Source: a bacterium
GTDB lineage: Bacteria; Bacillota; Clostridia; TANB77; UBA1234
NCBI GenBank assembly: GCA_963637565.1
Contig: CAVHNT010000044.1
Coordinates: 519-64,518 of the forward strand
Direction of reading: 5' to 3'
DNA length: 64,000 bases
Below are positions 1,834 to 50,945 of this stretch, piece after piece (position 1 is the first letter of the stretch; each line of letters opens with the position of its first letter). The notes under the pieces are model-generated. The model made no database searches and had not been told where the DNA came from. It saw only the letters and a program-made list of their open reading frames with translations. The position numbers were made by a program, and so were the translations under genes.

Positions 1834-3498
1834 ATGATTAATATCAATGAAAATACTGTGGCAGTTGAAACGTCTGCTGAATTAAAAAATGTTTTGGAAG
1901 CTAGTAACGATATAACTTATATATATTTGGCGAATGACATTACTTTAGAACAAGGAATAACAATTCTAGGGACAAAGGCACAAGTAACAATAGATGGACT
2001 CTATCCTGCCGACGAAACAGGGAAAATACATACATATACAGATATGAATAGTGCGGGTAGTGGAGATGCTATTGGTGTAAGAACCGCTAGTAACATACAT
2101 GTAAAAGTAAAAAACCTTAACGTCGTTGGAAAAAATTATTATGGGTTGATTTATGTATCTGAAACTTCTGCACACAAAGATGTAATTATTACTTATGAAA
2201 ATATAACATATAATGGTCCACAAATCACCTATCATCCTAGTGGACTTTCTATTTATCAAGATATGAACATAAACATAGTTGCCTCTACAGCTTCTCCTGC
2301 AAATGAGGTTGGAGAAGTTGGGAGTATTCAAATGGGTGGAAAAGTAGTAATAACACACAATGCGACTGGAGATTCAACATTTTGGTTTAGAGGAACAACA
2401 GGTACGCCATATATTGAAATACTGCAGGATGCTGATGTTTCTATAACCACCACAAGAGATATTGCATATACATCGAATTATTTAAAAGTCACTGTAAATA
2501 AGAATGCGAAATTTAACGTTAAAAGCAAATATGGATTCTTTAGAGATAATGGACATCAGGCATCTAGCATTTTAGTTGATGAAAATAGTGTGTTTTCAAT
2601 AATTCAAAGTCAGGCAAATGGTACTGTTGCAACATTAAATTGTCGAGGCGACTTCGAGGTGAATAGCGGTGCTACTATTTATTTAGAAGCTAATTATCAG
2701 AACTCGGCACCACTTATACTATTTAATACAACATCATCAAAGTTTAATATAAATAATCCTAAGAGTTTAATTCTATATAATAAAAGTTACAATTGTTTAG
2801 GTTTTGGAAATACCTCAACATTCAATATAAATTGTGGCAAACTTGATTATTGGGCAACATCTCCAGAGCTAATTGAAACAGGAAATATTGGCAATAATCC
2901 ACTGTATGCTTGGTATAAGTCAGGCACAGAAAACTTAAGTATGATTTCAAGTGTAACGTCGTCAAAAACAACAATAACAAGTACTAATTTAACAGATGAA
3001 GAAAAGACAAAGTTACCAGACTTGACTCTCTTAACATTTCAAACTGCAAAGACTATAAGGATTATGGAATTTGGAACTTTAGAATTATTAAGTGCACCAT
3101 CTAAAATAGAATTCCAGCGTCCAATAATAAAAGAAAATCCTCTTATACTTGGCAGGAAAAATGACGAAATAACTATATTAGTTAGTGATTCTAGAGTAAT
3201 TAGTTCGGAATGGTATTTATACGCGTATATAGAAAAACCACTCACGAGTTCAAATCAGAAATATACGTTAAAAGACTCACTAATTTTTGTGTCTGAAAGT
3301 GGAAAAATAAAAACGTTAAGTGATACTCCAACTCTAGTATACACAGGCAGTTCGAGTGGTGGAACATCGAAAACAACGGATATAAAATGGAATAAAACTG
3401 ATGGAATATTATTTCAAGTTATAGATGCTCTTTACAATGGAGAAACATATACTACTCCAATTAATTGGATTCTTACTGAAGAAAAAATAGAGTCTTGA
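1834..3498 (+). CDS. Hypothetical protein with predicted right-handed parallel beta-helix (pectin-lyase-like) repeats
   Basis: The likely start is M at 1834 (MININENTV) behind AAAGGGG. The sequence has repetitive N/T/S/G-rich short beta-strand segments and no signal peptide. It ends with a TGA stop, which shows TGA is a stop codon in this genome. Confidence 0.4.
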   Translation: MININENTVAVETSAELKNVLEASNDITYIYLANDITLEQGITILGTKAQVTIDGLYPADETGKIHTYTDMNSAGSGDAIGVRTASNIHVKVKNLNVVGKNYYGLIYVSETSAHKDVIITYENITYNGPQITYHPSGLSIYQDMNINIVASTASPANEVGEVGSIQMGGKVVITHNATGDSTFWFRGTTGTPYIEILQDADVSITTTRDIAYTSNYLKVTVNKNAKFNVKSKYGFFRDNGHQASSILVDENSVFSIIQSQANGTVATLNCRGDFEVNSGATIYLEANYQNSAPLILFNTTSSKFNINNPKSLILYNKSYNCLGFGNTSTFNINCGKLDYWATSPELIETGNIGNNPLYAWYKSGTENLSMISSVTSSKTTITSTNLTDEEKTKLPDLTLLTFQTAKTIRIMEFGTLELLSAPSKIEFQRPIIKENPLILGRKNDEITILVSDSRVISSEWYLYAYIEKPLTSSNQKYTLKDSLIFVSESGKIKTLSDTPTLVYTGSSSGGTSKTTDIKWNKTDGILFQVIDALYNGETYTTPINWILTEEKIES

Positions 3499-3540
3499 AA
3501 TCCATGAAGTGCTGTGAAAAAATTTGTATATTTATAGAAA

Positions 3541-3603
3541 AAGAAAGGGATGTATAAGTGATTACTATTAGTAATCTTTTTATAATCCCTTTCTTTATTT
3601 TTA
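3541..3603 (+). terminator. Putative intrinsic terminator (long hairpin + T-run) after beta-helix gene
   Basis: AAAGAAAGGGAT (3541-3552) pairs with ATCCCTTTCTTT (3585-3596). A nested palindrome ATTACTAtTAGTAAT lies in the loop. An ATTTTTAA tract follows. Confidence 0.45.
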
Positions 3604-3887
3604 ATTCTATATAATAGTAAAATTATTAAAAGTTAAAATTCAGCCTTAATTTCTTTTTTGAATTCTTATTATAAATGCAAATACGAATCTTATACTTGGT
3701 TTGTATTTTAGTACAATATTTAATAAATTTAATTCTGTATTTATTATAGCAATCCTCAAAATTATAAATAAATTTAACTTTGCAACGTTTACAGCAAGGC
3801 TTGTTATAAACCGTTACCAAATTGCTTTTATATATTTTGTTGTTACATTTAATTATAGCTATATTGTCTAACCTTTTCCAATTATCA

Positions 3888-4271
3888 CTAAACTTTTTGC
3901 ACTTGAAAAGTAACTGTTGCATCTTCAGTATTAGCAATAGTGTCTAGTTGAACAGTTAATAAACCAGTTGTAGGATCATAGGTGTATTCTGTAACAACGC
4001 CATTTACCATTACACTATCATCAACTAGTTTAATCAATGTTGGATCTAAAGTATCTGTAAATACTGGCTTTTCATAAGGACTATCAGCATTATTTGTGAT
4101 TGTAACGGTATACATCAAATTACCACTTGCCCAATTTTGCTTATCAGCTTTCTTAACGATAGTTAAACCAGCTATTAACTCAGTAATGACGGCTTCAGAA
4201 GTAAGTGTAGTTGGAACAGCCTCATAATCTCCCACAACATTGGCAATATTGCTTAGTTTTACATTTGCCAT
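3888..4271 (-). CDS. DUF11 (conserved repeat domain) protein, possible spore-surface/appendage-type protein
   Basis: The 127-aa protein resembles the single-copy DUF11 / B_ant-repeat fold (TVTITNN...TDTLDPTLIKLVDDSVMVNGV...TYDPTTGLLTV...ATVTFQV). It has no signal peptide and stands as its own transcription unit. Confidence 0.45.
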   Translation of the reverse strand: MANVKLSNIANVVGDYEAVPTTLTSEAVITELIAGLTIVKKADKQNWASGNLMYTVTITNNADSPYEKPVFTDTLDPTLIKLVDDSVMVNGVVTEYTYDPTTGLLTVQLDTIANTEDATVTFQVQKV

Positions 4272-8068: not shown

Positions 8069-8147
8069 AGATGTAATGAGAAATGATATGAGTGAAAGTG
8101 GATTTGCTTTAGAGCTGAAATATTTAATAAAATAAGGAAGTGAAAAA

Positions 8148-9071
8148 ATGGACATGTATCAAAAAAGAAAAATGAGACAAGAAATGAATAGTAGTGGAAA
8201 TAAAGAAGAAAATAGCAAAACAAGTATTAACTGGTACCCAGGCCACATGGCGAAGGCTAGGCGAGAAATTGAAGAAGCTATAAAATTGGTTGATGTTGTT
8301 ATAGAAATAGTAGATGCAAGAATTCCTAAATCAAGCAGGAATCCTGTGTTAAATGAAATAATATCGGACAAGCCAAGAGTTATAGTTTTAAATAAGACCG
8401 ACTTAGCAAATAGAAACGAAACCAAAAAGTGGATTGAGTATTTTAAAAAATATAATCAGGTGGCTATTGAAGTAAATTCAAATCAAGGAATTGGTGTTAA
8501 AGATGTTGTTAATGCTACTTATGATTTTATGAGTGAAATGCTTAAGAAAAAAGAAGAAAAAGGACAAGTTGGAGCATCTGTAAAGGCAATGATAGTAGGT
8601 ATTCCTAATGTTGGCAAATCGACCTTTATAAATAAGATTGCCGGTAAGTCGACAGCTGCAACTGGAAATAAACCTGGCGTGACTAAGAAAAATCAATGGG
8701 TTAGATTAAATGATAAGATACAATTATTAGATACTCCTGGTGTGCTATGGCCTAAATTTGAAGATGAAATTACAGCAAGGCATTTGGCATACATTGGTAC
8801 TATAAAGGACACTATATTGGATGTCGAAGAACTTGCACTACACTTGATTGAAGAATTATTGGTCTGTGATAAAGAAAAATTATTTGAAAGATATAAAATT
8901 TCAAATGATTTTGAATACGAAATGCCTGTTGAAGTAATGGAAGAGATTGGCAGAAAAAGAGGATGTTTAGTTAGAGGTGGAGAAATTGATTATACTAAAG
9001 TGGCTAATATTCTTTTAGACGAGTTTAGATGTGGAAAAATAGGAAATATAACACTAGAATGTGCTAAATAA
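8148..9071 (+). CDS. rbgA: Ribosome biogenesis GTPase A (YlqF/RbgA)
   Basis: INWYPGHMAKARREIEEAIKLVDVVIEIVDARIP is the circularly permuted GTPase signature. The motifs VLNKTDL and GIPNVGKST are present. Confidence 0.85.
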   Translation: MDMYQKRKMRQEMNSSGNKEENSKTSINWYPGHMAKARREIEEAIKLVDVVIEIVDARIPKSSRNPVLNEIISDKPRVIVLNKTDLANRNETKKWIEYFKKYNQVAIEVNSNQGIGVKDVVNATYDFMSEMLKKKEEKGQVGASVKAMIVGIPNVGKSTFINKIAGKSTAATGNKPGVTKKNQWVRLNDKIQLLDTPGVLWPKFEDEITARHLAYIGTIKDTILDVEELALHLIEELLVCDKEKLFERYKISNDFEYEMPVEVMEEIGRKRGCLVRGGEIDYTKVANILLDEFRCGKIGNITLECAK

Positions 9072-9575: not shown

Positions 9576-9739
9576 CATAGCATAATAAAGAAGATACATG
9601 AAGAGTGAGGCACGCCTCACTCTTTACTTATGCAAAGGGAAAGTTAAATTTTTCTTCTACATAGAAACATTTAATTTAAACATAAGATTTTCTTAGAGCA
9701 GAGAATCAGAGATTTTCAACTTTCTTGAAGGAGGAATAT

Positions 9740-19174: not shown

Positions 19175-19531
19175 GTGAAGATTCGTAGTATGATTAGTTG
19201 TGGACCTCTGAGAGCTGGTCAGCTCTATGACGTGCAGCAGGCAGACGGAAATCTCGTTGTGCTGAAGGGTGTGCCAGGAATTTGGGAGACGGGCAATTTT
19301 GTGATTGAATCGCAACAGCCTGAAGTTTACCTGGCTATTGCCTACGAGTTTCCCATTGTTGGGTACCCCCTCAGTTGCAAAAAAATTGATGGGTGCCGTG
19401 AAACCGGAGAAGTAAGGATTCTTGAAACCATCACGACCTCTCCTGTTATGGCGATGAACTACATAGGTGGAAACATTTGGAGTGTTTTCACCTATAGTGG
19501 CAATCTGTACATCGTACAGGTAGTTGCTTGA
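19175..19531 (+). CDS. Hypothetical 118-aa protein, compositionally foreign (about 48% GC in a roughly 29% GC genome)
   Basis: A GTG start sits behind AGGAGAAAGG. Its codon usage is rich in G/C-ending codons, unlike its neighbours. It has its own promoter upstream and a hairpin+T-run downstream. No recognisable motif. Confidence 0.5.
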   Translation: MKIRSMISCGPLRAGQLYDVQQADGNLVVLKGVPGIWETGNFVIESQQPEVYLAIAYEFPIVGYPLSCKKIDGCRETGEVRILETITTSPVMAMNYIGGNIWSVFTYSGNLYIVQVVA

Positions 19532-19535
19532 TTAA

Positions 19536-19580
19536 AAAACAGCTTTGGTGACTTTTAGTTGCCAGAGCTATTTTTTATGT
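19536..19580 (+). terminator. Putative intrinsic terminator after GC-rich ORF
   Basis: CAGCTTTGG...CCAGAGCT is an imperfect stem, followed by ATTTTTTAT. Confidence 0.35.
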
Positions 19581-19731
19581 AATAGGAAAGTAACAAATTT
19601 GCAACTTTTTATGTATTAATTTTCTTTCCTATTGCATAAAAAACTTTAATTTATGCGAGAGATTTTCTTTCTTTCAGTCGAAAACTCTCGAGGGTCGAAA
19701 GAATGAAAATCGAAGATTTTCATCTTTCTTG
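19571..19731 (+). repeat. Composite palindromic intergenic repeat, copy 1 (module A 19571-19645 + module B 19653-19731)
   Basis: Module A is TTTTTATGTAATAGGAAAG-(loop)-CTTTCCTATTGCATAAAAAAC, with 15-bp arms. Module B is ATGCGAGAGATTTTCTTTCTTTCAGTCGAAAACTCTCGAGGGTCGAAAGAATGAAAATCGAAGATTTTCATCTTTCTTG, with two hairpins. The same sequence recurs at 21658-21818(-), 28994-29154(+), 50791-50867 (A only), 44518-44610 (degenerate) and 35653-35681 (B tail). Confidence 0.85.
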
Positions 19732-19806
19732 TCTATTACTAGTATTGAAAATATAGTGTTAATATATTAAGATAGATGTGTATTATAAAGATTATTATTT
19801 TAGGAG

Positions 19807-20406
19807 ATGGATAGATTGAAACTTATACTTGCATCAAATTCGAAATGGAGAAAGAAATTAATTAATATGGCAGGCTTTGATTGTGAGGTAATTCCAAGCA
19901 ATGTTTCGGAAAATATAGAGTTCAATTCGCCAGACGAATATGTTATGGAACTTTCAAGAAGAAAGGCAACAGAAGTGGCTGGTAAGTTAACAGAGGGGAT
20001 TGTAATTTCAGCTGATACGATTGGATATATGGATAATGAAAAATTTGAGAAACCAAAAAGCAGGGAAGAAGCTTTTAGAAACATAAAGAAGCTTTCAGGC
20101 AGAGTTAATTATGCTGTTACTGGTGTTACAATTATAGATATTGAAAAAAATAAGAAAACTACATTTGCAGAAAAAACGGAAGTTTATTTTAAAGAGATGT
20201 CGGATGAAGAAATAAATTGGTATATAGATAACGAAAAATCAGTATATGATTGTGCTTGTTACTCAATAGAAACAGCTGGTTCGTTATTTATTTCAAAAGT
20301 TGTGGGTAATTATACTAATATAGTTGGCTTGCCAATAAGTAGGATATACGAAGAAATTAGAAATTTTGGATATTCAATAAGTGACTTTCCAGTGGTAAAG
20401 GATTAG
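19807..20406 (+). CDS. maf: Maf-like nucleoside triphosphate pyrophosphatase (septum formation protein Maf)
   Basis: LILASNSKWRKKL...ISADTI are the Maf motifs. The true start may be TTG 19816, because GGAG abuts the ATG at 19807. Confidence 0.8.
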   Translation: MDRLKLILASNSKWRKKLINMAGFDCEVIPSNVSENIEFNSPDEYVMELSRRKATEVAGKLTEGIVISADTIGYMDNEKFEKPKSREEAFRNIKKLSGRVNYAVTGVTIIDIEKNKKTTFAEKTEVYFKEMSDEEINWYIDNEKSVYDCACYSIETAGSLFISKVVGNYTNIVGLPISRIYEEIRNFGYSISDFPVVKD

Positions 20407-21657: not shown

Positions 21658-21818
21658 CAAGAAAGATGAAAATCTTTGATTTTCATTCTTTCGACTCTCG
21701 AGAGTTTTCGACTGAAAGGAAGAAAATCTCTCGCAATAGAATAAAGTTTTTATACAATAGGAAAAATTTAATACATAAAAAGTTATAAATCTGCTACGTT
21801 CCTATTGTATAAAAAAAC
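21658..21818 (-). repeat. Composite palindromic intergenic repeat, copy 2 (inverted relative to copy 1)
   Basis: Its reverse complement reads TTTTTATACAATAGGAACGTAGCAGATTTATAAC...CCTATTGTATAAAAAC + ATTGCGAGAGATTTTCTTCCTTTCAGTCGAAAACTCTCGAGAGTCGAAAGAATGAAAATCAAAGATTTTCATCTTTCTTG. It is about 90% identical to copy 1. Confidence 0.85.
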
Positions 21819-21863
21819 GTGAGCTTTTCATATAATTGAAAACTCACGTTTTATTGATTTACA

Positions 21864-22793
21864 TTAACCTCTAAATGGCTCTAAATTGCTTAATACCCAG
21901 TCATGATCACCTTTAGTTATTATCGCACCACAATATTCACATTTTCCTGATGATGTTACGTTTGTTGGAGCACCACAGTTAGGGCAGTTAGATGTCTTCA
22001 TTTCTCCGTTACTTTCTTGAGTTTTTAAGCCCTTCTTTCTTATGAATGTCATTAAGTATGTTGTTGTTCTTCTTGTTGTAGCATCACCCTTTAATATTTT
22101 ACCTGTTTCTTCGTCTTTGATGTAGTCTATCATAGAAGAGTTAAGAAGAATTTTTAATGTGTCTTTGTCATTGTCTTGGCTAAATGAGTAAAGATTTGCG
22201 TAATTTACAGCAATTCTGTCCATTACATTTATTTGTTTCTTTTCAATGTATTGTTTTAATTGAGTTGAATGTTGCTCGAAAAGTTCTTCTGTTTCAAATG
22301 TTCTGATTTCTTCCCAATTTCTCTTAGTCCAACATTCTTGCAATTTTACAAATGTATTCTTTGCAGATGATAAGAATTTATCTTCGTTAAAGAATTCGTC
22401 GACAGCTTTAATATCCTCTAAAACTTTTTGAGAAGAGTATCTTGAAGTAGTATTATTGTTATAATTGCTGTTGTTATTATTTGTATGTGTATTATAGTTA
22501 GATGGTCCAGAAGGTTTATTCTTATTTTTGGTCAAAGCGACAATTATTATAATAACAATCACTGCAAGTACAAGAAATCCATTATCTTCTCCAGAGCTTG
22601 ATGAACCGTAATCCGAACTGCTCCAATCAGAGTCCCAACTAGAACTACTCCAATCAGAACTGCTCCAGTCAGACCCACCCCAATCAGAATCATAAGATTC
22701 AAAGTTTCCAACATCTGCAAGTGTTAGTGTTGTGAATGAAAGAGCAAGTATAAAAGTGAGGATAAGAGCCAATATCTTAAAATATTTTTTCAC
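21864..22793 (-). CDS. Tim44-like domain membrane protein with C-terminal zinc ribbon
   Basis: It has a signal peptide, then SDW/SSS low-complexity repeats, a TM helix (FLVLAVIVIIIIVAL), a Tim44-like region (FVKLQECWTKRNWEEIRTFETEELF...) and a C-terminal CPNCGAP...CEYCG ribbon. Confidence 0.5.
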   Translation of the reverse strand: MKKYFKILALILTFILALSFTTLTLADVGNFESYDSDWGGSDWSSSDWSSSSWDSDWSSSDYGSSSSGEDNGFLVLAVIVIIIIVALTKNKNKPSGPSNYNTHTNNNNSNYNNNTTSRYSSQKVLEDIKAVDEFFNEDKFLSSAKNTFVKLQECWTKRNWEEIRTFETEELFEQHSTQLKQYIEKKQINVMDRIAVNYANLYSFSQDNDKDTLKILLNSSMIDYIKDEETGKILKGDATTRRTTTYLMTFIRKKGLKTQESNGEMKTSNCPNCGAPTNVTSSGKCEYCGAIITKGDHDWVLSNLEPFRG

Positions 22794-26963: not shown

Positions 26964-27794
26964 ATGAAAGTTGCAGTCATTTCGGATATTCATGGAAACC
27001 TTGAAGCATTGAAGACAACCTTAAATGATATAAAGAAAAGAAATGTAGATAAGGTTATATGTCTTGGCGACATTATTGCGCGCGGGCATCATCCGCAGCA
27101 ATGCATAAATATTGTAAGAGCGGAATGTGATGTTGTTCTTAGAGGAAACTGTGATAGATTTTTTTCTAACACTTTTGATGGTTTTTCTTCTGAAATTGAA
27201 GAAAAAAGAATTCGTTGGGTTCAATCAATGCTATCGAAAGAAGATATGAAATATTTATCCTCTCTACCGTTTTCTTATGAGTTTTATATGAGTGGTAGCT
27301 TAGTGAGACTCTTTCATGCAACTCCAGAGAAAGACGATGAAACTGTTATAAATCAAGATGATTTTCAAACAAAGTATAGAATGTTTCTTCCAAGTAAGAA
27401 TACTATATCTGATAAAATAGCAGACGTTGTATTGTATGGACATATCCATTATCCTTACTTTGACAGTCTTTATAACAAAACATTAATAAATGTTGGGAGT
27501 GTTGGTAATGCGTGTGTAAGTATAAGAAATGACATTAAAGACAGTTGTGTTCTTGAAACCACAAGGGCAACATATTTTATCCTAGATGGAGAATGGATGA
27601 GTCGTGAATACAAAGAGGACATTGCATTTACCTTTGTTAAAATAACTTATGACATTGAAAAGGAGCTTGAAGATATAGAACTGAATGTTGAACCAGTGAT
27701 TTATGGAAAAGAGGTAAGAGAAGGTCGGTTTCGTAACATGAAGAAAATCATGAACAACTACAAGCGGCTTGGCATGGACATTGAAAACATATAA
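26964..27794 (+). CDS. Calcineurin-like metallophosphoesterase
   Basis: MKVAVISDIHGN, GDIIARG and GHIHYP are the metallophosphoesterase motifs. Confidence 0.75.
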   Translation: MKVAVISDIHGNLEALKTTLNDIKKRNVDKVICLGDIIARGHHPQQCINIVRAECDVVLRGNCDRFFSNTFDGFSSEIEEKRIRWVQSMLSKEDMKYLSSLPFSYEFYMSGSLVRLFHATPEKDDETVINQDDFQTKYRMFLPSKNTISDKIADVVLYGHIHYPYFDSLYNKTLINVGSVGNACVSIRNDIKDSCVLETTRATYFILDGEWMSREYKEDIAFTFVKITYDIEKELEDIELNVEPVIYGKEVREGRFRNMKKIMNNYKRLGMDIENI

Positions 27795-27813
27795 CAGAAG
27801 GGAGAATAAAAAG

Positions 27814-28956
27814 ATGTACGAATTATCGTTCAGAGAAACCCAGAAAATTGGTGAGATTGCTAAGAAGTTTAACATCGTTGAAGGAAAGATTGAGTGGATT
27901 CTTCCTATTGATAGTGGCAGAATTAATTATACTTATAAGATTGTTGTGAATACTGGAAATGATACTGTATCATATTTGCTTCAAAGAATTAATCATAATG
28001 TATTCAAATCTCCTGAAGAAGTAATGAATAATGCAATCTTGGTTACTAATCATATTAGGCAAAAGGGGAGAAATACAATTAAATTTATTGAAGTAAAACC
28101 TGGATATAGTGCTCATGAATATTTATATATTGATGATGAAAATGGTGAGAAGCATTATTGGCGACTTAGCGAGTTTATACATTCAGAAGTTTTTCAAAGT
28201 ATTACAAAGAAGGAAGATATGTATGTATTAGGAAATGTGATTTGTGATTTTTCTAAGATTTTAGAAGATTTTGATGCTAAATCTCTAAAAGAGACTATTC
28301 CTCAATTTCATAACACTAGAAAAAGATTTGAGAATCTTCTTGTATCGGTTGCTAATAATTTGCTTTCAAATAAAGATGAGCATCGTGCTATGAATCCAAT
28401 TGCCAAAGATGCAATTGAATTTGTTATTGCGAGAAGAGAGAAACTTTCTGAAATTGTTATTGCACTTGAAAATGGAACCATTCCATATAGAGTTACGCAC
28501 AACGATCCAAAATTGAATAATATTTTGTTTGACAGAAAGACAAACAAACCTATTTGTTTGATTGACTTGGATACTGTTATGCCAGGTTCTATACTATATG
28601 ATATTGGTGATGCAATTCGTTCGGGTGCAAATACTATTTCAGAAGAATCTAAAAATTATTCATCTGCAACTTTGGATATGGAGCTTTATTATGAATTTGT
28701 TAAAGGATGTTTAGACTCTAATATTCTTACTGAGGCAGAGGTAAAGTTAATACCGCTTTCGGTATGGACAATTACTTTGGAATTGGGTATGAGATTTTTA
28801 ATGGACTATATTGATGGAAACATTTATTTTCCTGTAGAATATGGAGAACAAAATCTTACTAGAGCTTGGATTCAGTTTTCCCTTGTAAAAAACATTGAAA
28901 GGCAATTTGATGATATGCAACAATTTATTGAGAAATATCAAAGAGATAAGATTTAA
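27814..28956 (+). CDS. Phosphotransferase (APH/choline-kinase-like) family kinase, possibly sugar 1-kinase
   Basis: ATG 27814 sits behind GAAGGGAG. The Brenner motif HNDPKLNNILFD and the motif LIDLDT are present. Confidence 0.6.
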   Translation: MYELSFRETQKIGEIAKKFNIVEGKIEWILPIDSGRINYTYKIVVNTGNDTVSYLLQRINHNVFKSPEEVMNNAILVTNHIRQKGRNTIKFIEVKPGYSAHEYLYIDDENGEKHYWRLSEFIHSEVFQSITKKEDMYVLGNVICDFSKILEDFDAKSLKETIPQFHNTRKRFENLLVSVANNLLSNKDEHRAMNPIAKDAIEFVIARREKLSEIVIALENGTIPYRVTHNDPKLNNILFDRKTNKPICLIDLDTVMPGSILYDIGDAIRSGANTISEESKNYSSATLDMELYYEFVKGCLDSNILTEAEVKLIPLSVWTITLELGMRFLMDYIDGNIYFPVEYGEQNLTRAWIQFSLVKNIERQFDDMQQFIEKYQRDKI

Positions 28957-28993
28957 AAAAGAGAGTGGTAAGGATTTATTTTCTTACCACTTG

Positions 28994-29154
28994 TTTTTAT
29001 GTAATAGGAAAGTAACAGATTTGCAACTTTTTGTGTGTTAATTTTCTTTCCTATTACATAAAAAACATTAATTTATGCGAGAGATTTTCTTCCTTTCGGT
29101 CGAAAATTCTCGAGGGACGAAAGAATGAAAATCGAAGACTTTCATTCTTTCTTG
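28994..29154 (+). repeat. Composite palindromic intergenic repeat, copy 3
   Basis: TTTTTATGTAATAGGAAAGTAACAGATTTGCAACTTTTTGTGTGTTAATTTTCTTTCCTATTACATAAAAAAC + ATGCGAGAGATTTTCTTCCTTTCGGTCGAAAATTCTCGAGGGACGAAAGAATGAAAATCGAAGACTTTCATTCTTTCTTG. It lies between two convergent genes. Confidence 0.85.
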
Positions 29155-29155
29155 T

Positions 29156-29482
29156 TCAGTTTTCACAGTCTTCAGGTTTAAATTCACAATCTACGAACAT
29201 TTTATCAACAATAGTTTTAGCATCAAATTCAATAGGAAATTCAACTTTCATTTTTTGAATTATTGTAAATTTGCAAGAACCATCACAAACGCCTTTGCAA
29301 CAATTATCGTGATTTTTCATAGAGATGATTGGATTTCCACAGCATTCGGTTTTAATTTTACCAACATTAATAGATGGCGTTGTAGTAACCGGAATACAAA
29401 CAGTTAAAAACTTTTCTATTTGTGCTTTACATTTGTTGAAATCTGGAAAGTTTTTTCCACACTCTTTCTCATCATCAAACAT
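29156..29482 (-). CDS. Hypothetical cysteine-rich small protein (possibly spore-coat associated)
   Basis: The 108-aa protein has 13 Cys (CCGNP, CCKGVCDGSC). It lies next to the Coat_F genes. Confidence 0.35.
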   Translation of the reverse strand: MFDDEKECGKNFPDFNKCKAQIEKFLTVCIPVTTTPSINVGKIKTECCGNPIISMKNHDNCCKGVCDGSCKFTIIQKMKVEFPIEFDAKTIVDKMFVDCEFKPEDCEN

Positions 29483-30770: not shown

Positions 30771-30830
30771 TTGTAAAATTTAAAGACCGTTTGAAACATA
30801 ATGGTCTTTAAAATATTGAAAGGAAAGAAT

Positions 30831-32093
30831 ATGAGTGAAATTAAAATAATGGGTGGAGGATTAGCAGGAACAGAAGCTGCATATCAAATCGCCAAGAGGG
30901 GTATAAAAGTAAAGCTATATGAAATGAAACCAAAAAAATTTTCACCAGCACATTCAAACAAGAATTTAGCAGAGATAGTTTGTAGTAATTCATTGAAATC
31001 AAATAGTATAACTAACGCTTGTGGACTATTAAAAGAGGAACTTAGAAGATTGGATTCACTTTTGATAAAATGTGCTGACGAAACAAAAGTACCAGCTGGT
31101 CAAGCTTTGGCAGTTGATAGAGAAAAATTTTCTGAACTTGTTACACAAAAAATAGAGGAAAATCCAAACATTGAATTAATTCATGAAGAAGTGGAAAAAA
31201 TCGAAAGTGATGATATAACAATAATAGCCACAGGTCCACTTACATCAGAAAGTTTATCTGAAGAAATTGCTAGAATAACAGGTAAAGAAAAATTGTTTTT
31301 TTATGATGCAGCTGCACCAATTGTTTTAAAGGATTCAATTAATATGGAAAAAGCTTTTACTGCAGACAGATATGGCAAAGGAGAAAGTGACTATATAAAT
31401 TGTCCAATGACAAAAGAAGAATATGATAAATTTTATAACGAATTAATAAATGCAGAAATTGTGAATAAACATGAGTTTGAAAAAGGAAATTTGTTTGAAG
31501 GATGTATGCCAATAGAAGAAATGGCACGACGTGGTTCGCAAACATTAACTTTTGGACCACTTAAGCCAGTGGGATTCGATAAAAAATATTATGCAGTAGT
31601 ACAATTAAGACAGGATAATAAAGAAGATACAATGTATAATCTTGTGGGATTCCAAACAAATTTAAAATTTGGAGAACAAGCAAGAGTATTTAAACTTATT
31701 CCAGCATTAGAAAACGCTGAATTTGTAAAATATGGTGTAATGCATAGAAATACATATATAAACTCTAGCGAATTGTTAGATGAAACTTATAATTTGAAAG
31801 GAACAAATATTTATTTTGCAGGTCAAATATCTGGTGTAGAGGGATATGTTGAATCTATAGCATCTGGATATGTAGCAGCAATTAATGCTGTTCAGAGAAT
31901 AAATAATGGTGATAAAATTGTTTTTTCTGATGAAACAATAATTGGAGCACTTGCCAAATATATATCTACTCCAAATAAAGATTTTCAACCAATGAATGCG
32001 AACTTTGGAATATTAAATTCGGACAAAAAAATTAAAAATAAGATTGAAAGATATGAATATTTAGCAAATCGATCATTAGCACACTTTGAATAG
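30831..32093 (+). CDS. trmFO: Methylenetetrahydrofolate--tRNA-(uracil54-C5)-methyltransferase TrmFO
   Basis: [21 protein letters not shown] is the FAD-binding motif. SNSLKS and a conserved Cys are present. Confidence 0.85.
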
Positions 32094-32110
32094 AAAAAAA
32101 GGAGGTACTT

Positions 32111-33358
32111 ATGAAAAAAATATTATTAACATTAGTTTTGGGCATGTTTTTGATATCTAGCACTGTGTTTGCTGGAAGTGTAAACGTACAGTTAAATGGA
32201 AAAAATATAGACTTTACAGATGAAAAGGGAAATAAGGTTGAAGCACAAATTATAAACTCAAGAACAATGGTGCCAATGAGAAAAATATTTGAACTTTTGG
32301 GAGCATCAATAGAATGGAATGGAGAAACTCGAACCGTTTTAGCAACTAAAAATAATACAACTATAAAATTACAAATTGGTAATGAAATAGCTGAAGTAAA
32401 TAAGAACGGAAAAAATGAAAGAATAAAACTTGATTCAAAACCAATTATAATGAATAGCAGAACTTTGGTGCCTCTTAGATTTATATCTGAAAGTTTAGAC
32501 AAACAAGTAGGCTGGGACAGTGAGAATCAAACCGCAATAATAATTGATTACGATTATTTCTTGGAAAAAATAAAAGTTAACACACCTACCTTTTATAAAG
32601 CACTTACAACCATACCAACACAAAGTGCTACAATACAAATTACAAGAAATTATAACGATTTAACAAATAGTACAAATAATACCACTTCCACAGTTTATGC
32701 AACATTAACTCAAAAAGCAACTAATAAGCAAAATATACTAATAAATTTTAGTGGAAATTCATTGCTATTTAAAGAAATAGTTGAAGAGGGATGGGGAGAT
32801 ATAGCATTAGATGTAACTTACGATAATAATGGGGTAACGTATACAACACAATCACCAATACTTTCAAAAATGTTGAATTCAAATAGAAAAACATATGATG
32901 AACTTGGACTTGTTGGAAGATATAATACGTCTTTTTCAGAGCTTGCTAAGGAATTGTTAAAAATAAATGAGAACAATTTAAATGTAAATACATTTAGTAG
33001 AATCAGAGAAGAATATGATAATTTTTTAAAACTATTTTCTATTTCAGAAAGCAATGGAGTATCAACTATTAAGGCAAATGAAATAAAATATTCCAATGCA
33101 AACAATGTATACATTGATTATACAAAATTTGACAACATAATTGTTGAAAATGAATTTCTTCAAGTATATAATTTAATCAACAAATTATTATTTAATTATG
33201 ATGTGAGTATGGATGAGTTATTATATGATACATCAAATATAAGTGTAGACTTAATTTCACAGGTTCAAGATGATAATATAATAACAAATATAACAATTAA
33301 ATTACAAAATGATTATAACGAGTTGTACACATATGTAATTAAAATTAATAAAAAATAA
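32111..33358 (+). CDS. Copper amine oxidase N-terminal domain (Cu_amine_oxidN1) secreted protein, paralogue 1
   Basis: It has a signal peptide, then INSRTMVPMRKIFELLGASIEWNGETRTV and a second copy NSRTLVPLRFISESL. These are the tandem 'stalk' domains. Confidence 0.7.
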   Translation: MKKILLTLVLGMFLISSTVFAGSVNVQLNGKNIDFTDEKGNKVEAQIINSRTMVPMRKIFELLGASIEWNGETRTVLATKNNTTIKLQIGNEIAEVNKNGKNERIKLDSKPIIMNSRTLVPLRFISESLDKQVGWDSENQTAIIIDYDYFLEKIKVNTPTFYKALTTIPTQSATIQITRNYNDLTNSTNNTTSTVYATLTQKATNKQNILINFSGNSLLFKEIVEEGWGDIALDVTYDNNGVTYTTQSPILSKMLNSNRKTYDELGLVGRYNTSFSELAKELLKINENNLNVNTFSRIREEYDNFLKLFSISESNGVSTIKANEIKYSNANNVYIDYTKFDNIIVENEFLQVYNLINKLLFNYDVSMDELLYDTSNISVDLISQVQDDNIITNITIKLQNDYNELYTYVIKINKK

Positions 33359-33374
33359 ATAGGAGGTGCTTATT

Positions 33375-34736
33375 ATGAAAAATTCAAAAATAATTGCATT
33401 AATATTGTCAATGAGTATGATACTTTCAATGTTTACTATGGTATTTGCTTATGATATGACAACACAAAATGATATGCTACTTATATCACAAAATCCATTT
33501 GCAGATGACTCTATTAAAGTATTAGTAAATGATCAACAAATTGATTTTACTGATGAAAATGGAAATGTAGTTGAACCTAAAATTATAAATAGTAGAACAA
33601 TGGTACCAATGAGAAAAATATTTGAAGTTTTTGGTGCTAATGTTGAATGGGAAGGAACAACACAAACAATAACAGCAACAACAGAAAGTAAAACTTTAGT
33701 TCTACAAATAAATAATCAAGAAGCAACGGTTAAAAGCGGAGATACAGAAGAAAAAATAATGTTGGATTCCGCACCAGTTATATATGATAGTAGAACATTA
33801 GTACCAGTTAGGTTTATAGCTGAATCATTAGAATTACATGTCGATTGGGTGCCTGAAACAAGAACTGTTGTAATTTTGGATTCAAGTTTCATATATGATA
33901 GATTACAAAAAGAAACACCAAATTTGTATGAGTTTATGAGCTACGAAGGTATAACACCAGAAACACTTCAGACTGCATTTAAAGCAAACGCAACATTAAA
34001 TTATAAAGATTCAGATAAGAATATTACAAATTTAAAATCAGTTTTAAATGGTGTTATTAAGTATGGTTCAAATAAGATGTTTGTAGACATGACTTTGAAA
34101 ACAACTGGAAAAGGTACTTTATTAGATACTTTGAAAGAAAATGGATTTGATGATATTTCACTAAGCAAAATTGCAGATTTTAGTGAAAAAGTTATATATA
34201 TAAAATCATCTCTATTAGAATCAGAGATAGGGAAGAAGTGGGCAAAACTTAATTCAACAGAAGTTTTTGATAAATATAACACGATTTTATCTAGCAAAAC
34301 TTCATTTAAAGATACAATTGAAACAGCACTTAATGAGATGAAATTAACTGAAAATTCTTATTCTGAAATTAATAATGTGTTGGATTATGTATGTGCATTT
34401 GCTAATGATAAGTATTTAAAAGTATCAGGAAGAACAACAAAAACATATACATATGAAATAGATTTAGACGATATTATTGAAATATTAGATTTAAATATTA
34501 CGAGAGCAGAATTAAAAGAAGAAAATCAAATATCTGATGCTAGTATAAAGATTTCTACAAAAGTTAAAGATGGTTATGCAACAGACACAAGCTTGGCTAT
34601 GTCTTTAAAAATTGAAGATGATGCTGAACAAGTTGAAATAAAACTTGATTTAAGCCAAAGTGTTGAAAAAATAAATGAAGCAATTACAATCAACATACCA
34701 ATTGAAAGAAATGTGGTAAATATAAGTGAAATGTAA
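33375..34736 (+). CDS. Copper amine oxidase N-terminal domain secreted protein, paralogue 2
   Basis: ATG 33375 sits behind AGGAGGTG. It has the same INSRTMVPMRKIFEVFGANVEWEGTTQTI / DSRTLVPVRFIAESL domains, with a divergent C-terminus. Confidence 0.7.
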   Translation: MKNSKIIALILSMSMILSMFTMVFAYDMTTQNDMLLISQNPFADDSIKVLVNDQQIDFTDENGNVVEPKIINSRTMVPMRKIFEVFGANVEWEGTTQTITATTESKTLVLQINNQEATVKSGDTEEKIMLDSAPVIYDSRTLVPVRFIAESLELHVDWVPETRTVVILDSSFIYDRLQKETPNLYEFMSYEGITPETLQTAFKANATLNYKDSDKNITNLKSVLNGVIKYGSNKMFVDMTLKTTGKGTLLDTLKENGFDDISLSKIADFSEKVIYIKSSLLESEIGKKWAKLNSTEVFDKYNTILSSKTSFKDTIETALNEMKLTENSYSEINNVLDYVCAFANDKYLKVSGRTTKTYTYEIDLDDIIEILDLNITRAELKEENQISDASIKISTKVKDGYATDTSLAMSLKIEDDAEQVEIKLDLSQSVEKINEAITINIPIERNVVNISEM

Positions 34737-35590: not shown

Positions 35591-35650
35591 CGTGCCTCTA
35601 CAGACTGTTGACAAACCCTTATGCTTTTCACACGAGGTTTGTTAACAGTC
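35591..35650. terminator. Bidirectional terminator hairpin between convergent genes
   Basis: CAGACTGTTGACAAACC ... GGTTTGTTAACAGTCTG is a 17-bp stem with 1 mismatch. A T-run lies on the left and A/T-rich sequence on the right. Confidence 0.5.
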
Positions 35651-35670
35651 TGACTGAAAAGCTTTGATTT

Positions 35671-36714
35671 TCATCTTTCTTGATTTTCTTGTGCAAAAGA
35701 ATTATTTATTACTTTATCGAAAGGAGCGACTTTATTCAATTCACCAGCTTCAGTTATTACCTTTTGCAATAGATTGAATGATTCTTCACTCATAACAGGG
35801 GTTTCATTCCAAACATCAATCTCTTTGTAATGTTCAATTGCTTTTGTAAGAATGTCTATATCTGTGTCAGGAAAAGACGATACAACAGCATTTGCAATTT
35901 CAGAAGCAGAGTGTGAATTTACATAGTTTAATCCTTTCTTTATCGCATTGACAAAATGTGATATTGTATCCTTATTGTTTTCAATATAGCTCTTTTTAGC
36001 AAAGTATGATGTGTATGGAATTTCATCAGTTGATGCACCAACAGCTGCAACAATATATCCTTGATTATTTAGTTCCAAGCTAGATGCTGTTGGTTCAAAA
36101 ACTGTTACAAAATCTCCGGTGCCTGAAACGAATGCACTCGTCATTGCATCAAAACTTATTGATGTGTCTAAGTTTAAATCTTCTTTTGGATTTATTTCGT
36201 TTTGCTTTAATACATATTCAAATGTCATGTATGGAACTCCACCAGTTCTTCCTGGCAATATATGTTTTCCTTTTAACATATTCCAATTAAAATCTGAAAT
36301 TTTTTCTCTTGCAACTAACATTGAACCATCTCTTTTGGTTAATTGGGCAAACACCTCAGTATAGTCAGAAGCACCTTCATTATATACATATATTGCGGCT
36401 TCTGGTCCTGCAAAACCAATATCAACTTGATTTGATAAGACTGCCGTCATTACATTGTTAGCTCCGCCACCGTTTATCAATTCTATTTCCAATCCTTCTT
36501 CTTTAAAGAACCCTAGATTAATTGCAACGTATTGTGGAGCATAAAAAACAGAATGCGTTACTTCACTAACTGTAATTTTTTGTACCTTGGTTTCAGGTGT
36601 ATCACCAGAATTTATTACTTGATGGTTTAAATTATCTTTTTTGCAAATCAAAGCAATAGTAATTACAATTACGACTGCCATGATAGAGATTAAAGTATAA
36701 GTTAATCTTCTCAT
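35671..36714 (-). CDS. ABC transporter substrate-binding protein (NMT1/THI5/SsuA-like)
   Basis: An N-terminal TM/signal anchor is followed by an NMT1-like periplasmic binding fold (VFYAPQYVAINLGFFKEEGLEIELI...). Confidence 0.7.
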   Translation of the reverse strand: MRRLTYTLISIMAVVIVITIALICKKDNLNHQVINSGDTPETKVQKITVSEVTHSVFYAPQYVAINLGFFKEEGLEIELINGGGANNVMTAVLSNQVDIGFAGPEAAIYVYNEGASDYTEVFAQLTKRDGSMLVAREKISDFNWNMLKGKHILPGRTGGVPYMTFEYVLKQNEINPKEDLNLDTSISFDAMTSAFVSGTGDFVTVFEPTASSLELNNQGYIVAAVGASTDEIPYTSYFAKKSYIENNKDTISHFVNAIKKGLNYVNSHSASEIANAVVSSFPDTDIDILTKAIEHYKEIDVWNETPVMSEESFNLLQKVITEAGELNKVAPFDKVINNSFAQENQER

Positions 36715-44457: not shown

Positions 44458-44477
44458 TTTAGAGTAGTTAAAATTGA

Positions 44478-44506
44478 CTCGTATGGATTAAAACCATGCG
44501 AGTTTT
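44478..44506 (+). terminator. Intrinsic terminator after DUF1292 gene
   Basis: The hairpin CTCGTATGG-ATTAAAA-CCATGCGAG is followed by TTTTTCT. Confidence 0.5.
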
Positions 44507-44517
44507 TCTATGTTAGA

Positions 44518-44610
44518 GTTTTTTTTCCTTTCATTAGAAAACTTTCGAAGGTAAAATCGGATATTTTCTTCTTTCTTGTGCGACAGGAAAATAACAGGAT
44601 TTTGCAATTC
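44518..44610 (+). repeat. Degenerate copy of the composite intergenic repeat (B-like then A-like fragment)
   Basis: CCTTTCATTAGAAAACTTTCGAAGGTAAAATCGGATATTTTCTTCTTTCTTG resembles module B. GACAGGAAAATAACAGGATTTTGCAA resembles the module A left arm. Confidence 0.5.
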
Positions 44611-50765: not shown

Positions 50766-50800
50766 TAAAGATGGGCAGTAGATTTTAATTCTACTGCTTA
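50766..50800 (+). terminator. Intrinsic terminator after ankyrin gene
   Basis: The hairpin GCAGTAGA-TTTTAAT-TCTACTGC is followed by TTATTTTTAT. Confidence 0.55.
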
Positions 50801-50867
50801 TTTTTATGTAATAGGGAAGTAACAGAATTGCAACCTTTTATGTATTGATTTTTATCTTTCCTGTACA
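50791..50867 (+). repeat. Solo module-A copy of the intergenic palindromic repeat
   Basis: TTTTTATGTAATAGGGAAGTAACAGAATTGCAACCTTTTATGTATTGATTTTTATCTTTCCTGTACAATACAAA. The right arm is partly degenerate. Confidence 0.7.
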
Positions 50868-50945
50868 ATACAAATTAAGCAAAATAATTTCTATTATATT
50901 TTGTAACAAAGTGATAAAATAGAGAGAAGAAATGGGGGAAATTGT

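What the first reader, a model, noticed from the sequence alone, without database searches (positions are those of the whole stretch)
19571..19731. Abundant composite palindromic intergenic repeat family (REP/PATE-like), at least 6 copies in 64 kb
Seen in sequence: an approximately 160-bp bipartite element recurs at 19571-19731(+), 21658-21818(-), 28994-29154(+), 50791-50867 (module A only), 44518-44610 (degenerate) and 35653-35681 (module B tail). Full copies are about 90% identical. Module A is a 15-bp-arm palindrome, TTTTTATGTAATAGGAAAG / CTTTCCTATTGCATAAAAA, around a 33-nt loop. Module B holds two hairpins, one centred on CTCGAG, and ends in TTTTCATCTTTCTTG. T-run, palindrome and A-run are symmetric, so these are not simple terminators. 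The modules occur together and separately, which is the behaviour of mobile miniature palindromic elements (REP/BIME, RUP/BOX-like, or IS200/IS605-derived PATEs). I do not recognise this sequence as a named repeat family.
Basis: seen in the sequence. Interest (0 to 1): 0.7.

Follow-up and report, generated by a model that had tools for sequence, protein, structure and literature searches.

The report
Terminator-homing mosaic repeat in gut Clostridia
A real, previously unnamed ~155-base hairpin-rich repeat has multiplied in a few uncultured human-gut Clostridia, and almost every copy sits directly behind a gene's transcription-terminator hairpin in the same orientation, which points to a small parasitic DNA element that homes to terminators.

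Summary
Three full copies (19571-19731 +, 21658-21817 -, 28994-29154 +; 89-93% identical), one module-A-only copy (50801-50874) and several decayed relics are in the window. None matches any Rfam family.

The family is genome-wide. Exact-pattern scans found 68 loci in four uncultured Clostridia genomes assembled from metagenomes (MAGs) and 47 loci in human-gut metagenome assemblies, many at contig ends. Phage, viral and plasmid collections gave no match.

The unit has three parts:
- Module A, a 20-bp-stem palindrome with a 33-nt loop.
- A T-rich linker.
- Module B, which holds two hairpins and ends in CTTTCTTG.

New findings:
- The 5' end abuts a unique GC-rich hairpin plus T-run. 82% of upstream windows fold at -10 kcal/mol or below, against 4% of random windows.
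- The element lies in the sense orientation of the upstream gene.
- At window 62547-62571 the terminator is empty, while relatives (91-97% identical) carry the whole A+B unit there.
- The unit has no terminal inverted repeats and shows no target duplication.
- Stem A shows compensatory changes.

A REP-associated transposase (RAYT) exists in a relative, but it is flanked by its own GTAG-tagged REPs, not by this element.

Verdict: a new, lineage-restricted, non-autonomous mosaic repeat that homes to terminators. The enzyme that moves it is unknown.

The parts
19541..19569 (+). Unique terminator hairpin of the upstream gene (ORF 19175-19531). It is the landing site of copy 1, not part of the repeat.
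   Evidence: Terminator scan, (13-bp stem followed by ATTTTTTATG). Fold.
19571..19643 (+). Copy 1, module A. A palindrome of 19-20 bp arms (TTTTTTATGTAATAGGAAAG / CTTTCCTATTGCATAAAAAA) around a 33-nt loop.
   Evidence: modA nhmmer E=1.2e-19.
19644..19652 (+). Copy 1, T-rich linker CTTTAATTT.
   Evidence: Alignment A7.
19653..19731 (+). Copy 1, module B. HP1 spans 19656-19667/19680-19690. HP2 spans 19697-19711/19715-19728. The tail is CTTTCTTG.
   Evidence: modB nhmmer E=8.8e-29.
21818..21849 (-). Unique terminator hairpin of the upstream minus-strand gene (ORF 21864-22793). Landing site of copy 2.
   Evidence: (-14.6 kcal/mol).
21658..21817 (-). Copy 2, full A+B on the minus strand. A is 21747-21817, the linker is 21737-21746 and B is 21658-21736.
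   Evidence: (E=8.9e-52).
28964..28991 (+). Unique terminator hairpin of the upstream gene (ORF 27769-28956). Landing site of copy 3.
   Evidence: (-15.9 kcal/mol).
28994..29154 (+). Copy 3, full A+B. A is 28994-29065, the linker is 29066-29074 and B is 29075-29154. Its 3' end lies 1 nt from the stop codon of the convergent ORF 29156-29482(-).
   Evidence: (E=7.8e-56).
50775..50797 (+). Unique terminator hairpin of the upstream gene (ORF 50273-50761, ankyrin-repeat protein). Landing site of copy 4.
   Evidence: (-13.4 kcal/mol).
50801..50874 (+). Copy 4, module A only, with a degenerate right arm (CTTTCCTGTACAATACAAA). Module B is absent.
   Evidence: E=1.4e-13.
44477..44578 (+). Terminator hairpin (44477-44503) followed by a decayed module B (44507-44578).
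   Evidence: (E=2.5e-7).
35652..35682 (+). Relic holding only HP2 plus the tail. GATTTTCATCTTTCTTG is exact.
   Evidence: tail model E=6e-6.
9701..9727 (+). Weak relic of the HP2 tail just before a ribosome-binding site. The stretch upstream, from about 9640, looks like a decayed and internally deleted A+B.
   Evidence: 1 mismatch; E=0.002, weak.
62547..62571 (+). EMPTY landing site: the terminator AGACGGTCTTTGATCGTCT plus T6. In relatives L077 and L102 a complete A+B unit follows this T-run.

Best explanation
This is a non-autonomous, hairpin-rich mosaic repeat of about 155 nt (module A, linker, module B). It has multiplied in a small clade of uncultured human-gut Clostridia.

Shown by tool results:
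- It is multi-copy and dispersed.
- Its 5' end sits immediately 3' of a unique GC-rich stem-loop plus T-tract. This is usually the intrinsic terminator of a co-directional gene. In one copy it is a REP hairpin.
- Its orientation is locked to that hairpin.
- The whole A+B unit is present or absent at one orthologous terminator in close relatives.
- It has no terminal inverted repeats, and no target duplication is visible at that site.
- The arms of module A co-vary.
- Copies decay in place into B-only, A-only and tail-only relics.

Inferred:
- Copies are made by a trans-acting enzyme that recognises a folded stem-loop plus T-tract on single-stranded nucleic acid. This is the logic used by Y1/HUH single-strand transposases and by class C group II intron ribonucleoproteins. 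The element's own hairpins would be the cis signals.
- Landing behind terminators makes insertions nearly neutral.
- B-alone copies probably arise by deletion of palindrome A between the TTTATG repeats that flank it (TTTTTATGtaat... and AATTTATGcgag...).
- Arrays arise by repeated insertion at the same hairpin, or behind HP2 plus its T-rich tail.

The enzyme has not been identified.
For: Dispersal:
- Three full copies plus relics lie in the 64 kb window.
- 68 loci were found in MAGs HGM13616 and HGM13621 and in two Hadza MAGs.
- 47 loci were found in gut metagenome assemblies.
- nhmmer gives 192 non-redundant hits in about 0.95 Mb of held sequence.
- Contigs break at the repeat.

Terminator association:
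- The 45 nt upstream of the 5' end fold at a median of -15 kcal/mol. 82% fold at -10 or below (n=40), against a median of -3.9 and 3.8% for 500 random windows.
- The hairpin sequences are all different.
- Five of about nine strong hairpin-plus-T-run sites in the window are occupied.

Orientation:
- The upstream gene is co-directional for 38 of 48 copies.
- Between tandem genes there are 31 sense copies and 5 antisense copies.

Gain or loss:
- The window terminator at 62547-62571 is empty.
- L077 and L102 are 91-97% identical in the flanks and carry a full A+B starting right after the same T-run.

Independent events and decay at shared sites:
- L032 and L067 carry copies in opposite orientations at the same site.
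- L057 carries a full copy where L030 has a deleted derivative.
- The orthologous copies L005 and L056 are roughly 70% alike by eye, while their flanks are 88.7% identical.

Structure:
- 96.6% of stem cells pair. Three pairs change on both sides in 33 cells, and 0 of 500 shuffles reach that.
- The single-copy fold has z=-8.25.

Arrays:
- About 25% of B 3' ends are followed by the left arm of A, against a 1.7% background.
- B-B tandems occur.

Not a known RNA: no Rfam match.
Against: - No mobilising gene was found. No IS-like repeat above 250 bp occurs among the 117 loci. No Y1 transposase lies next to A/B.
- Only one clean filled/empty pair exists. It is not a pure insertion, because about 20 nt of the window (GATAATAATTATAAGAAATA) is missing from the filled allele.
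- The T-run is also the outer part of stem A. Part of the 'terminator T-tract' could therefore be brought in by the element.
- Module B is almost invariant among copies. One orthologous pair of B copies (L042/L069, roughly 93% alike by eye) is more conserved than its flanks (81.5% identical). This could mean selection or gene conversion rather than recent transposition.
- The loci were chosen because they carry the repeat, so counts outside the window are biased.
Confidence: 0.6

Rival explanations
1. It is a functional RNA module of 3' regions. Read-through transcripts of the upstream gene would fold into A, HP1 and HP2. These would act as a back-up terminator, an insulator or a block to 3' exonucleases. 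Selection, not transposition, would keep the copies alike.
For: - The element is in sense orientation to the upstream gene.
- HP2 followed by CUUUCUUG resembles a weak terminator. In one diverged copy (L037) HP2 is followed by TTTTTATT.
- HP1 mismatches lean towards G-T over A-C (36:9) on the sense strand.
- Module B is nearly invariant.
- The fold is strong.
Against: - The element lies after a complete hairpin plus T-tract, so little transcription should reach it.
- Module A is flanked by a T-run on its 5' side and an A-run on its 3' side. That is the wrong arrangement for termination on either strand.
- G-T versus A-C counts are symmetric in A (26:32) and in HP2 (16:15).
- A housekeeping terminator is filled in one lineage and empty in another.
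- Relics decay freely.
- There is no Rfam match.
- No promoter signal lies inside the element above shuffled expectation.
Confidence: 0.15
2. It is a palindrome-associated transposable element (PATE) derived from an IS200/IS605-family insertion sequence. It would keep only the end hairpins and be moved as single-stranded DNA by a Y1 TnpA encoded elsewhere in the genome, inserting 3' of a T-rich target.
For: - It has no terminal inverted repeats, and no target duplication is visible.
- Hairpins lie close to both ends.
- Insertion is strictly oriented, 3' of a short T-rich sequence.
- A Y1-family gene exists in a related genome.
Against: - That Y1 gene is a RAYT bracketed by its own GTAG REPs.
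- No tnpA lies next to an A/B end in 0.95 Mb.
- The two end hairpins (A and HP2) are unrelated in sequence. In the IS608 paradigm, as I recall it, one TnpA binds similar hairpins at both ends.
- Stem A starts right at the junction, which leaves no room for a guide sequence 5' of the hairpin foot.
Confidence: 0.12
3. It belongs to a REP/BIME system mobilised by a REP-associated tyrosine transposase (RAYT).
For: - The architecture is mosaic like that of BIMEs, and the element is extragenic at gene 3' ends.
- A RAYT (NCBIfam NF047646, E=2e-17) is present in the HGM13616 lineage.
Against: - The RAYT is flanked by GTAGCGGAGCACAnnGTGCTCCAT palindromes, which are a different family.
- A/B has no invariant GTAG or CGTC tag. 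GACG alternates with GTCG.
- The units are 70-155 nt, not 20-40.
- The window holds the A/B element but none of those REPs.
Confidence: 0.04
4. It is a drastically reduced class C group II intron, or an RNA mobilised by such an intron's reverse transcriptase. Those introns also insert just after terminator stem-loops in sense orientation.
For: - Site geometry and orientation match those reported for IIC introns. Splice sites lie 3-11 nt after the stem-loop, and the introns lie downstream of an inverted repeat followed by T's (PMC1702495).
- Module starts resemble the intron 5' motif GUGYG: GUGCG or AUGCG for B and GUGUA for A.
Against: - There is no match to the group II intron models in Rfam, even at E<=10.
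- HP2 lacks the features of domain V as I recall them (the AGC triad, a 3'-strand bulge and a GNRA loop).
- 155 nt is far below any known ribozyme core.
- No reverse-transcriptase gene was seen, although this was not searched systematically.
- Partial copies are discrete modules, not graded 5' truncations.
Confidence: 0.05

Closest known systems
REP/BIME (bacterial interspersed mosaic elements) of enterobacteria and pseudomonads
   Same: - Both are extragenic and lie at the 3' ends of genes.
- Both are built from palindromic units combined with other short motifs in variable mosaics and arrays.
- Both are high-copy and lineage-restricted.
   Different: - REPs are 20-40 bp with an invariant GTAG or CGTC tag and a cognate RAYT (PMC3733652, abstract). 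The units here are 70-155 nt and untagged.
- The only RAYT found has other REPs.
- The fixed sense orientation behind a pre-existing terminator is not, to my knowledge, a REP trait.
BOX elements of Streptococcus pneumoniae (boxA-boxB(n)-boxC) (own knowledge)
   Same: - Both are modular intergenic repeats in a Firmicute.
- Modules occur together, alone or repeated.
- Both have strong predicted folding, and no transposase is encoded.
   Different: There is no sequence similarity. To my knowledge BOX elements are not reported to be locked behind terminators in one orientation.
bcr1 and related Bacillus cereus group repeats
   Same: - The size is similar. BCR repeats range from 100 to 400 bp, and I recall bcr1 as about 155 bp.
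- Both reach tens to more than 100 copies and are restricted to one clade.
- Mobility of the BCR repeats is linked to a TTTAT motif (PMC6542083). Both modules here begin with TTTAT(G).
   Different: - bcr1 has, as I recall, terminal inverted repeats and a duplicated TTTAT. Here the A+B unit has neither.
- There is no sequence similarity.
Class C (IIC) group II introns
   Same: They occupy the same landing site, just downstream of a terminator stem-loop plus T's, in the same sense orientation (PMC1702495).
   Different: They are ribozyme and reverse-transcriptase retroelements. This element has no recognisable intron domains and no coding capacity.
IS200/IS605-derived PATEs
   Same: They have no terminal inverted repeats and no target duplication, carry hairpins near their ends, and insert in one orientation 3' of a short target (own knowledge).
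   Different: No cognate tnpA was found, and the two end hairpins are dissimilar.

Membership tests
REP / RAYT (REPtron) | A short (20-40 bp) imperfect palindrome | tested here: not met
   Module A is about 72 nt. HP1 is about 35 nt and HP2 about 32 nt, and both are embedded in a unit of 79-155 nt.
REP / RAYT (REPtron) | An invariant GTAG or CGTC tetranucleotide at one end of the palindrome | tested here: not met
   There is no GTAG in the consensus. The only CGTC (on the reverse strand, from GGGACG) alternates with GGGTCG among otherwise near-identical copies.
REP / RAYT (REPtron) | A RAYT gene flanked by copies of the repeat | tested here: not met
   The RAYT at L104 8074-8529 (NF047646, E=2e-17) is flanked by GTAGCGGA.CACA..GTGCTCCAT REPs, not by A/B. 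No second RAYT occurs in the held sequence. Whole genomes could not be searched.
TIR-type MITE (moved by a DDE transposase) | Terminal inverted repeats at the two ends of the mobile unit | tested here: not met
   The unit that is present or absent is A+B. Its ends, TTATGTAATAGG... and ...CATCTTTCTTG, are not inverted repeats. Only module A on its own is a palindrome.
TIR-type MITE (moved by a DDE transposase) | A target-site duplication flanking the copies | tested here: inconclusive
   No direct repeat is seen at the filled site (CGTCTTTTTT | unit | ATAAATCACA). However, the alleles also differ by a 20-nt indel. The 3' flanks of other copies share no repeat with their 5' flanks.
IS200/IS605-derived PATE | No TIR, no TSD, and hairpins near both ends | tested here: met
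IS200/IS605-derived PATE | Oriented insertion 3' of a conserved short target | tested here: met
   The element always lies 3' of a T-run that follows a hairpin, in sense orientation.
IS200/IS605-derived PATE | A full-length partner in the same genome with the same ends and a Y1 tnpA | not testable with these tools
   None occurs in 0.95 Mb of flanking sequence.
Class C group II intron | Ribozyme domains, especially domains V and VI | tested here: not met
   No match to the Rfam group II intron models at E<=10 in 19400-19900 or at gathering threshold across the window.
Class C group II intron | A location a few nt after a terminator stem-loop, in sense orientation | tested here: met
   Compared with PMC1702495.
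Known structured RNA (riboswitch, leader or sRNA) | A match to a curated covariance model | tested here: not met
   There are 0 matches at gathering threshold in the window. The best match in 19400-19900 has E=0.18 and is a miRNA model.

The most novel reading that the evidence does not exclude
The element could represent a previously undescribed way for a tiny non-coding element to move: structure-directed homing to any stem-loop followed by a T-tract. On this reading every module junction follows one rule:
- terminator | A
- terminator | B
- REP hairpin | A
- HP2-CTTTCTTG | B
- HP2-CTTTCTTG | A

The internal A-run of module A pairs with the target T-run, so it could act as a guide. The machinery would be an unknown single-strand or RNA-based system unrelated to RAYT, IS200/IS605 TnpA or group II introns.
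Probability: 0.15. Interest if true: 0.8.

Novelty: new variant of a known kind. Interest (0 to 1): 0.45.

Why it matters
Small interspersed repeats shape bacterial intergenic regions, break assemblies and can alter the 3'-end processing of neighbouring genes. For most families without terminal inverted repeats, the way they spread is unknown.

This family gives an unusually clean rule: insert right after a terminator stem-loop and its T-tract, in sense orientation. It also gives a natural filled/empty pair, so a hairpin-recognising mobilisation mechanism becomes testable.

Practically, the repeat explains why metagenome-assembled genomes of this gut Clostridia clade fragment at these sites. 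It also offers a lineage marker.

It is not a new regulatory RNA class on present evidence.

Tried and rejected
1. Riboswitch, leader or known sRNA. Rfam gave nothing at gathering threshold or at E<=10.
2. 5' leader or promoter of the downstream gene. This was suggested by copies 1 and 2 facing the convergent maf and pfkB genes. It is rejected because copy 3 lies between convergent genes. Plausible promoters lie downstream of the element, and promoter-like hits do not exceed the shuffled expectation.
3. A 17-codon ORF in module B (MREIFFLSVENSRGTKE). It has no ribosome-binding site. The start codon is lost (ATA, ATC) or a premature TGA appears in otherwise intact copies.
4. Composite transposon (copies 1 and 2 as inverted repeats around maf-pfkB). 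The only evidence is that a short-read contig ends in both repeats. Other copies do not bracket modules.
5. Phage or plasmid origin. There are no hits in viral contigs, phage records or plasmid records.
6. Autonomous partner. All-against-all BLAST of the loci found only orthologous or overlapping contigs. The RAYT hit belongs to another repeat family.
7. Strain-level empty sites through exact-protein look-ups. The window's proteins occur only in one sample, SRR13434665.
8. dif/Xer-like or attC-like site. Only short AT-rich word resemblances were seen by eye, with no proper spacer or consensus. This was not pursued.
9. A mutually exclusive 'switch' pairing (CTTTCG...CGAAAG across CTCGAG). The two variable positions do not co-vary.

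Full report
OBSERVATION

The repeat is real.
- The repeat finder reports 19572-19723 vs 28994-29145 at 93% identity. The inverted pairs joining 19571-19731 to 21658-21816 are 85-89% complementary.
- A profile built from the three copies recovers them at E=6e-56, 9e-52 and 8e-56. It also recovers a module-A-only copy at 50794-50874 (E=7e-11) and a decayed module B at 44471-44581 (E=9e-8).
- The 17-nt tail GATTTTCATCTTTCTTG is exact at 35666-35682 and has one mismatch at 9711-9727.
- Long sub-patterns have an expected count of 0.00 in shuffled sequence.
- One copy folds at -66.6 kcal/mol, with z=-8.25 against dinucleotide shuffles.
- No Rfam family reaches its threshold anywhere in the window. 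At E<=10 only noise appears around copy 1.

ANATOMY

- Module A is a palindrome with 19-20 bp arms (TTTTTTATGTAATAGGAAAG ... CTTTCCTATTACAYAAAAAA). Its 33-nt loop has a fixed orientation.
- A T-rich linker follows (CTTTAATTT or CTTTATTCT).
- Module B (about 79 nt) starts ATGCGAGAG. It holds HP1 (CGAGAG-A-TTTTC / GAAAACTCTCG, 12-nt loop) and HP2 (GAAAG-A-ATGAAAATC / GATTTTCAT-CTTTC, 3-nt loop). It ends CTTTCTTG, after which the flanks diverge at once.
- CTCGAG is part of the 3' arm of HP1, not a hairpin centre.

DISTRIBUTION

- One scan of 185,579 species-representative genomes with a 25-mer from HP1 returned 68 loci. All are in uncultured human-gut Clostridia MAGs: HGM13616, HGM13621 and two Hadza MAGs. 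Very many lie within 100 nt of a contig end.
- A scan of metagenome contigs with HP2 plus the tail returned 47 loci, all from human-gut assemblies.
- Viral contigs, phage records and plasmid records gave nothing.
- The only public contig that encodes the window's Maf protein exactly is a 1982-bp contig ending in the two inverted copies.
- The window itself is unbiased. It carries three full copies, one A-only copy and two to four relics in 64 kb.
- The observed forms are A+B (commonest), B alone, A alone, B-B tandems and B followed by A.

KEY NEW FEATURE: THE LANDING SITE

In its true orientation the element begins directly after a GC-rich hairpin and a T-run. The hairpin sequence is different at every locus.
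- The 45 nt upstream fold at a median of -15 kcal/mol, and 82% fold at -10 or below (n=40). For 500 random windows the median is -3.9 and 3.8% reach -10.
- The neighbouring gene on that side is co-directional for 38 of 48 copies. Between tandem genes the element is in sense 31 times and antisense 5 times.
- In the window, five of about nine strong hairpin-plus-T-run sites are occupied.
- In one locus the hairpin in front of module A is a REP rather than a gene terminator (L007).

GAIN AND LOSS

- Contigs L077 and L102 are 91-97% identical to window 58525-64000.
- At the terminator AAAAAGACGGTCTTTGATCGTCTTTTTT the window continues into the spacer and promoter of the next gene. L077 and L102 instead carry a complete A+B that starts within the T-run (T6 becomes T8-ATGTAATAGG) and ends CTTTCTTG|ATAAATCACA.
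- No direct repeat flanks the unit, and the unit has no terminal inverted repeats.
- The alleles also differ by about 20 nt of AT-rich spacer, so this is not a perfectly clean insertion.

Other orthologous comparisons show turnover.
- L032 and L067 carry copies in opposite orientations behind the same gene.
- L057 carries a full copy where L030 has a deletion derivative.
- The orthologous copies L005 and L056 have diverged to roughly 70% identity (my estimate by eye from the alignment) while their flanks are 88.7% identical.
- One orthologous pair of B copies (L042/L069, roughly 93% alike by eye) is more conserved than its flanks (81.5%). This suggests re-insertion, gene conversion or constraint.

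STRUCTURE

On 48 distinct full copies, 96.6% of stem cells form standard pairs.
- Three adjacent pairs in stem A change on both sides (AT/GC, GC/AT, UA/CG) in 33 cells. No shuffle out of 500 reaches that.
- The B helices hardly vary, which says nothing either way.
- G-T and A-C mismatches are balanced in A (26:32) and in HP2 (16:15). They lean towards G-T in HP1 (36:9). This is a weak hint of sense-strand RNA pairing, and it rests on related copies.
- The loops flip. The HP2 loop occurs as GAA/TTC and AAA/TTT. One copy (L103) has the 33-nt loop of A inverted. This is expected for inverted repeats that recombine or fold as DNA.

HOW IT MOST LIKELY WORKS

The facts shown here are:
- a dispersed, multi-copy element;
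- a 5' end that abuts unique hairpins plus a T-tract;
- a locked orientation;
- presence or absence of the whole unit;
- no TIR and no visible TSD;
- decay in place.

These fit a non-autonomous selfish element, copied in trans by an enzyme that reads a folded stem-loop plus T-tract on single-stranded nucleic acid. That last step is inference.

B-alone copies also abut terminators as TTTTTT-ATGCGAG. This is what deletion of palindrome A between its flanking TTTATG repeats would leave. About 25% of B 3' ends run straight into a left arm of A, against a 1.7% background. Together with the B-B tandems, this is what repeated insertion at one hairpin, or behind HP2 and its T-rich tail, would produce.

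An alternative reading is that A and B are separate elements, each homing to a hairpin plus T-tract. That reading is not excluded.

RIVALS

- RNA module. A functional 3' RNA module (back-up terminator or stabiliser) is supported by the sense orientation, the terminator-like HP2 and the invariance of B. Against it: the element lies after a complete terminator. Module A is flanked by T's on its 5' side and A's on its 3' side, so it cannot terminate on either strand. It is absent from a housekeeping terminator in one lineage, and relics decay.
- RAYT/REP. I found a RAYT in the HGM13616 lineage (L104 8074-8529; Pfam Y1_Tnp E=2.9e-4; NCBIfam REP-associated tyrosine transposase E=2e-17). It is bracketed by GTAGCGGA.CACA..GTGCTCCAT palindromes. 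That is a separate, classical REP family with about 15 copies in the loci and none in the window. A/B has no invariant GTAG or CGTC tag.
- IS200/IS605 PATE. The formal features fit, but no partner was found and the two end hairpins are unrelated.
- TIR-type MITE. It fails on terminal repeats.
- Reduced IIC group II intron. The site and orientation match published IIC behaviour (PMC1702495), and the module starts resemble GUGYG. There are no ribozyme domains.

COMPARISON AND NOVELTY

In kind this is an interspersed mosaic intergenic repeat, like BIMEs, BOX or the bcr repeats. BCR mobility is linked to a TTTAT motif (PMC6542083). The element meets the definition of none of these families and has no sequence match outside a narrow clade of uncultured gut Clostridia.

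The strict, oriented placement behind terminator stem-loops is, to my knowledge, documented for IIC introns but not for a 155-nt non-coding repeat. I therefore rate it a new variant of a known kind.

It is of moderate interest. It is solidly real and mechanistically suggestive. However, the host is uncultured, the mobilising enzyme is unknown, and no regulatory function is shown.

LIMITS

- The loci were selected by exact patterns from the repeat itself.
- Only one filled/empty pair is available.
- Whole genomes could not be searched for partners.
- No expression data were available.
The RAYT call rests on the Pfam and NCBIfam results.

Noticed in passing
L104 7887-8556 (relative of the window's organism; ENA ORSL01004120): A classic REPtron. 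A 151-aa REP-associated tyrosine transposase (8074-8529; NCBIfam NF047646 E=2e-17; HUH motif NHIHIIL, Tyr motif SYYDHII) is bracketed by GTAG-headed palindromes GTAGCGGA.CACA..GTGCTCCAT in inverted orientation. About 15 further copies of this REP occur in the loci, including three in tandem at 157-nt spacing in L099. None occurs in the window.
   Followed up: partly
L007 281-302 with 161-285: A copy of that REP hairpin, followed by T7, serves as the hairpin directly in front of module A. The landing site may therefore be any stem-loop plus T-tract, not only gene terminators. The orthologous site in L056 lacks both the REP and the element.
   Followed up: partly
L103 4361-4528; HP2 loops in many loci (e.g. 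L013, L018, window 21658-21817): Flip variants. One copy has the 33-nt loop of module A inverted relative to module B. The 3-nt HP2 loop occurs as GAA or TTC and as AAA or TTT, which are reverse-complement pairs. This indicates inversion or template switching across the palindromes.
   Followed up: no
window 41316-42131: A 48-nt tandem repeat (about 17 units, 62-85% identical to a reference) lies inside the 970-aa ORF 40526-43438. It corresponds to a 16-residue repeat protein.
   Followed up: no
window 30801-34736: Three adjacent ORFs of similar size (430, 415 and 456 aa) share repeated DNA segments (for example 32193-32391 vs 33526-33724 at 71%). They look like tandem paralogues.
   Followed up: no
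L059 3430-3650 and L055 4955-5250: A different unit of about 100 nt (GCACACATTACAATCATCTAAAGTAATAAGAAAAAATTTTTCGCTTGGCATGGTTAGGTTAGGAGAAAA...) is repeated in tandem, twice in L059 and three times in L055, next to a module B copy. Its nature is unknown.
   Followed up: no
window 3527-3609: A near-perfect 83-nt palindrome (41-nt arms, 73% complementary, 1-nt spacer) lies between convergent ORFs 1750-3498(+) and 3626-3937(-). It is probably a bidirectional terminator region and is unrelated to the repeat family.
   Followed up: no
window 35600-35651: Upstream of the HP2 tail relic lies an unrelated long hairpin (CAGACTGTTGACAAACC...GGTTTGTTAACAGTCTG) where HP1 would be. The HP2-plus-tail module may combine with other hairpins.
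   Followed up: no
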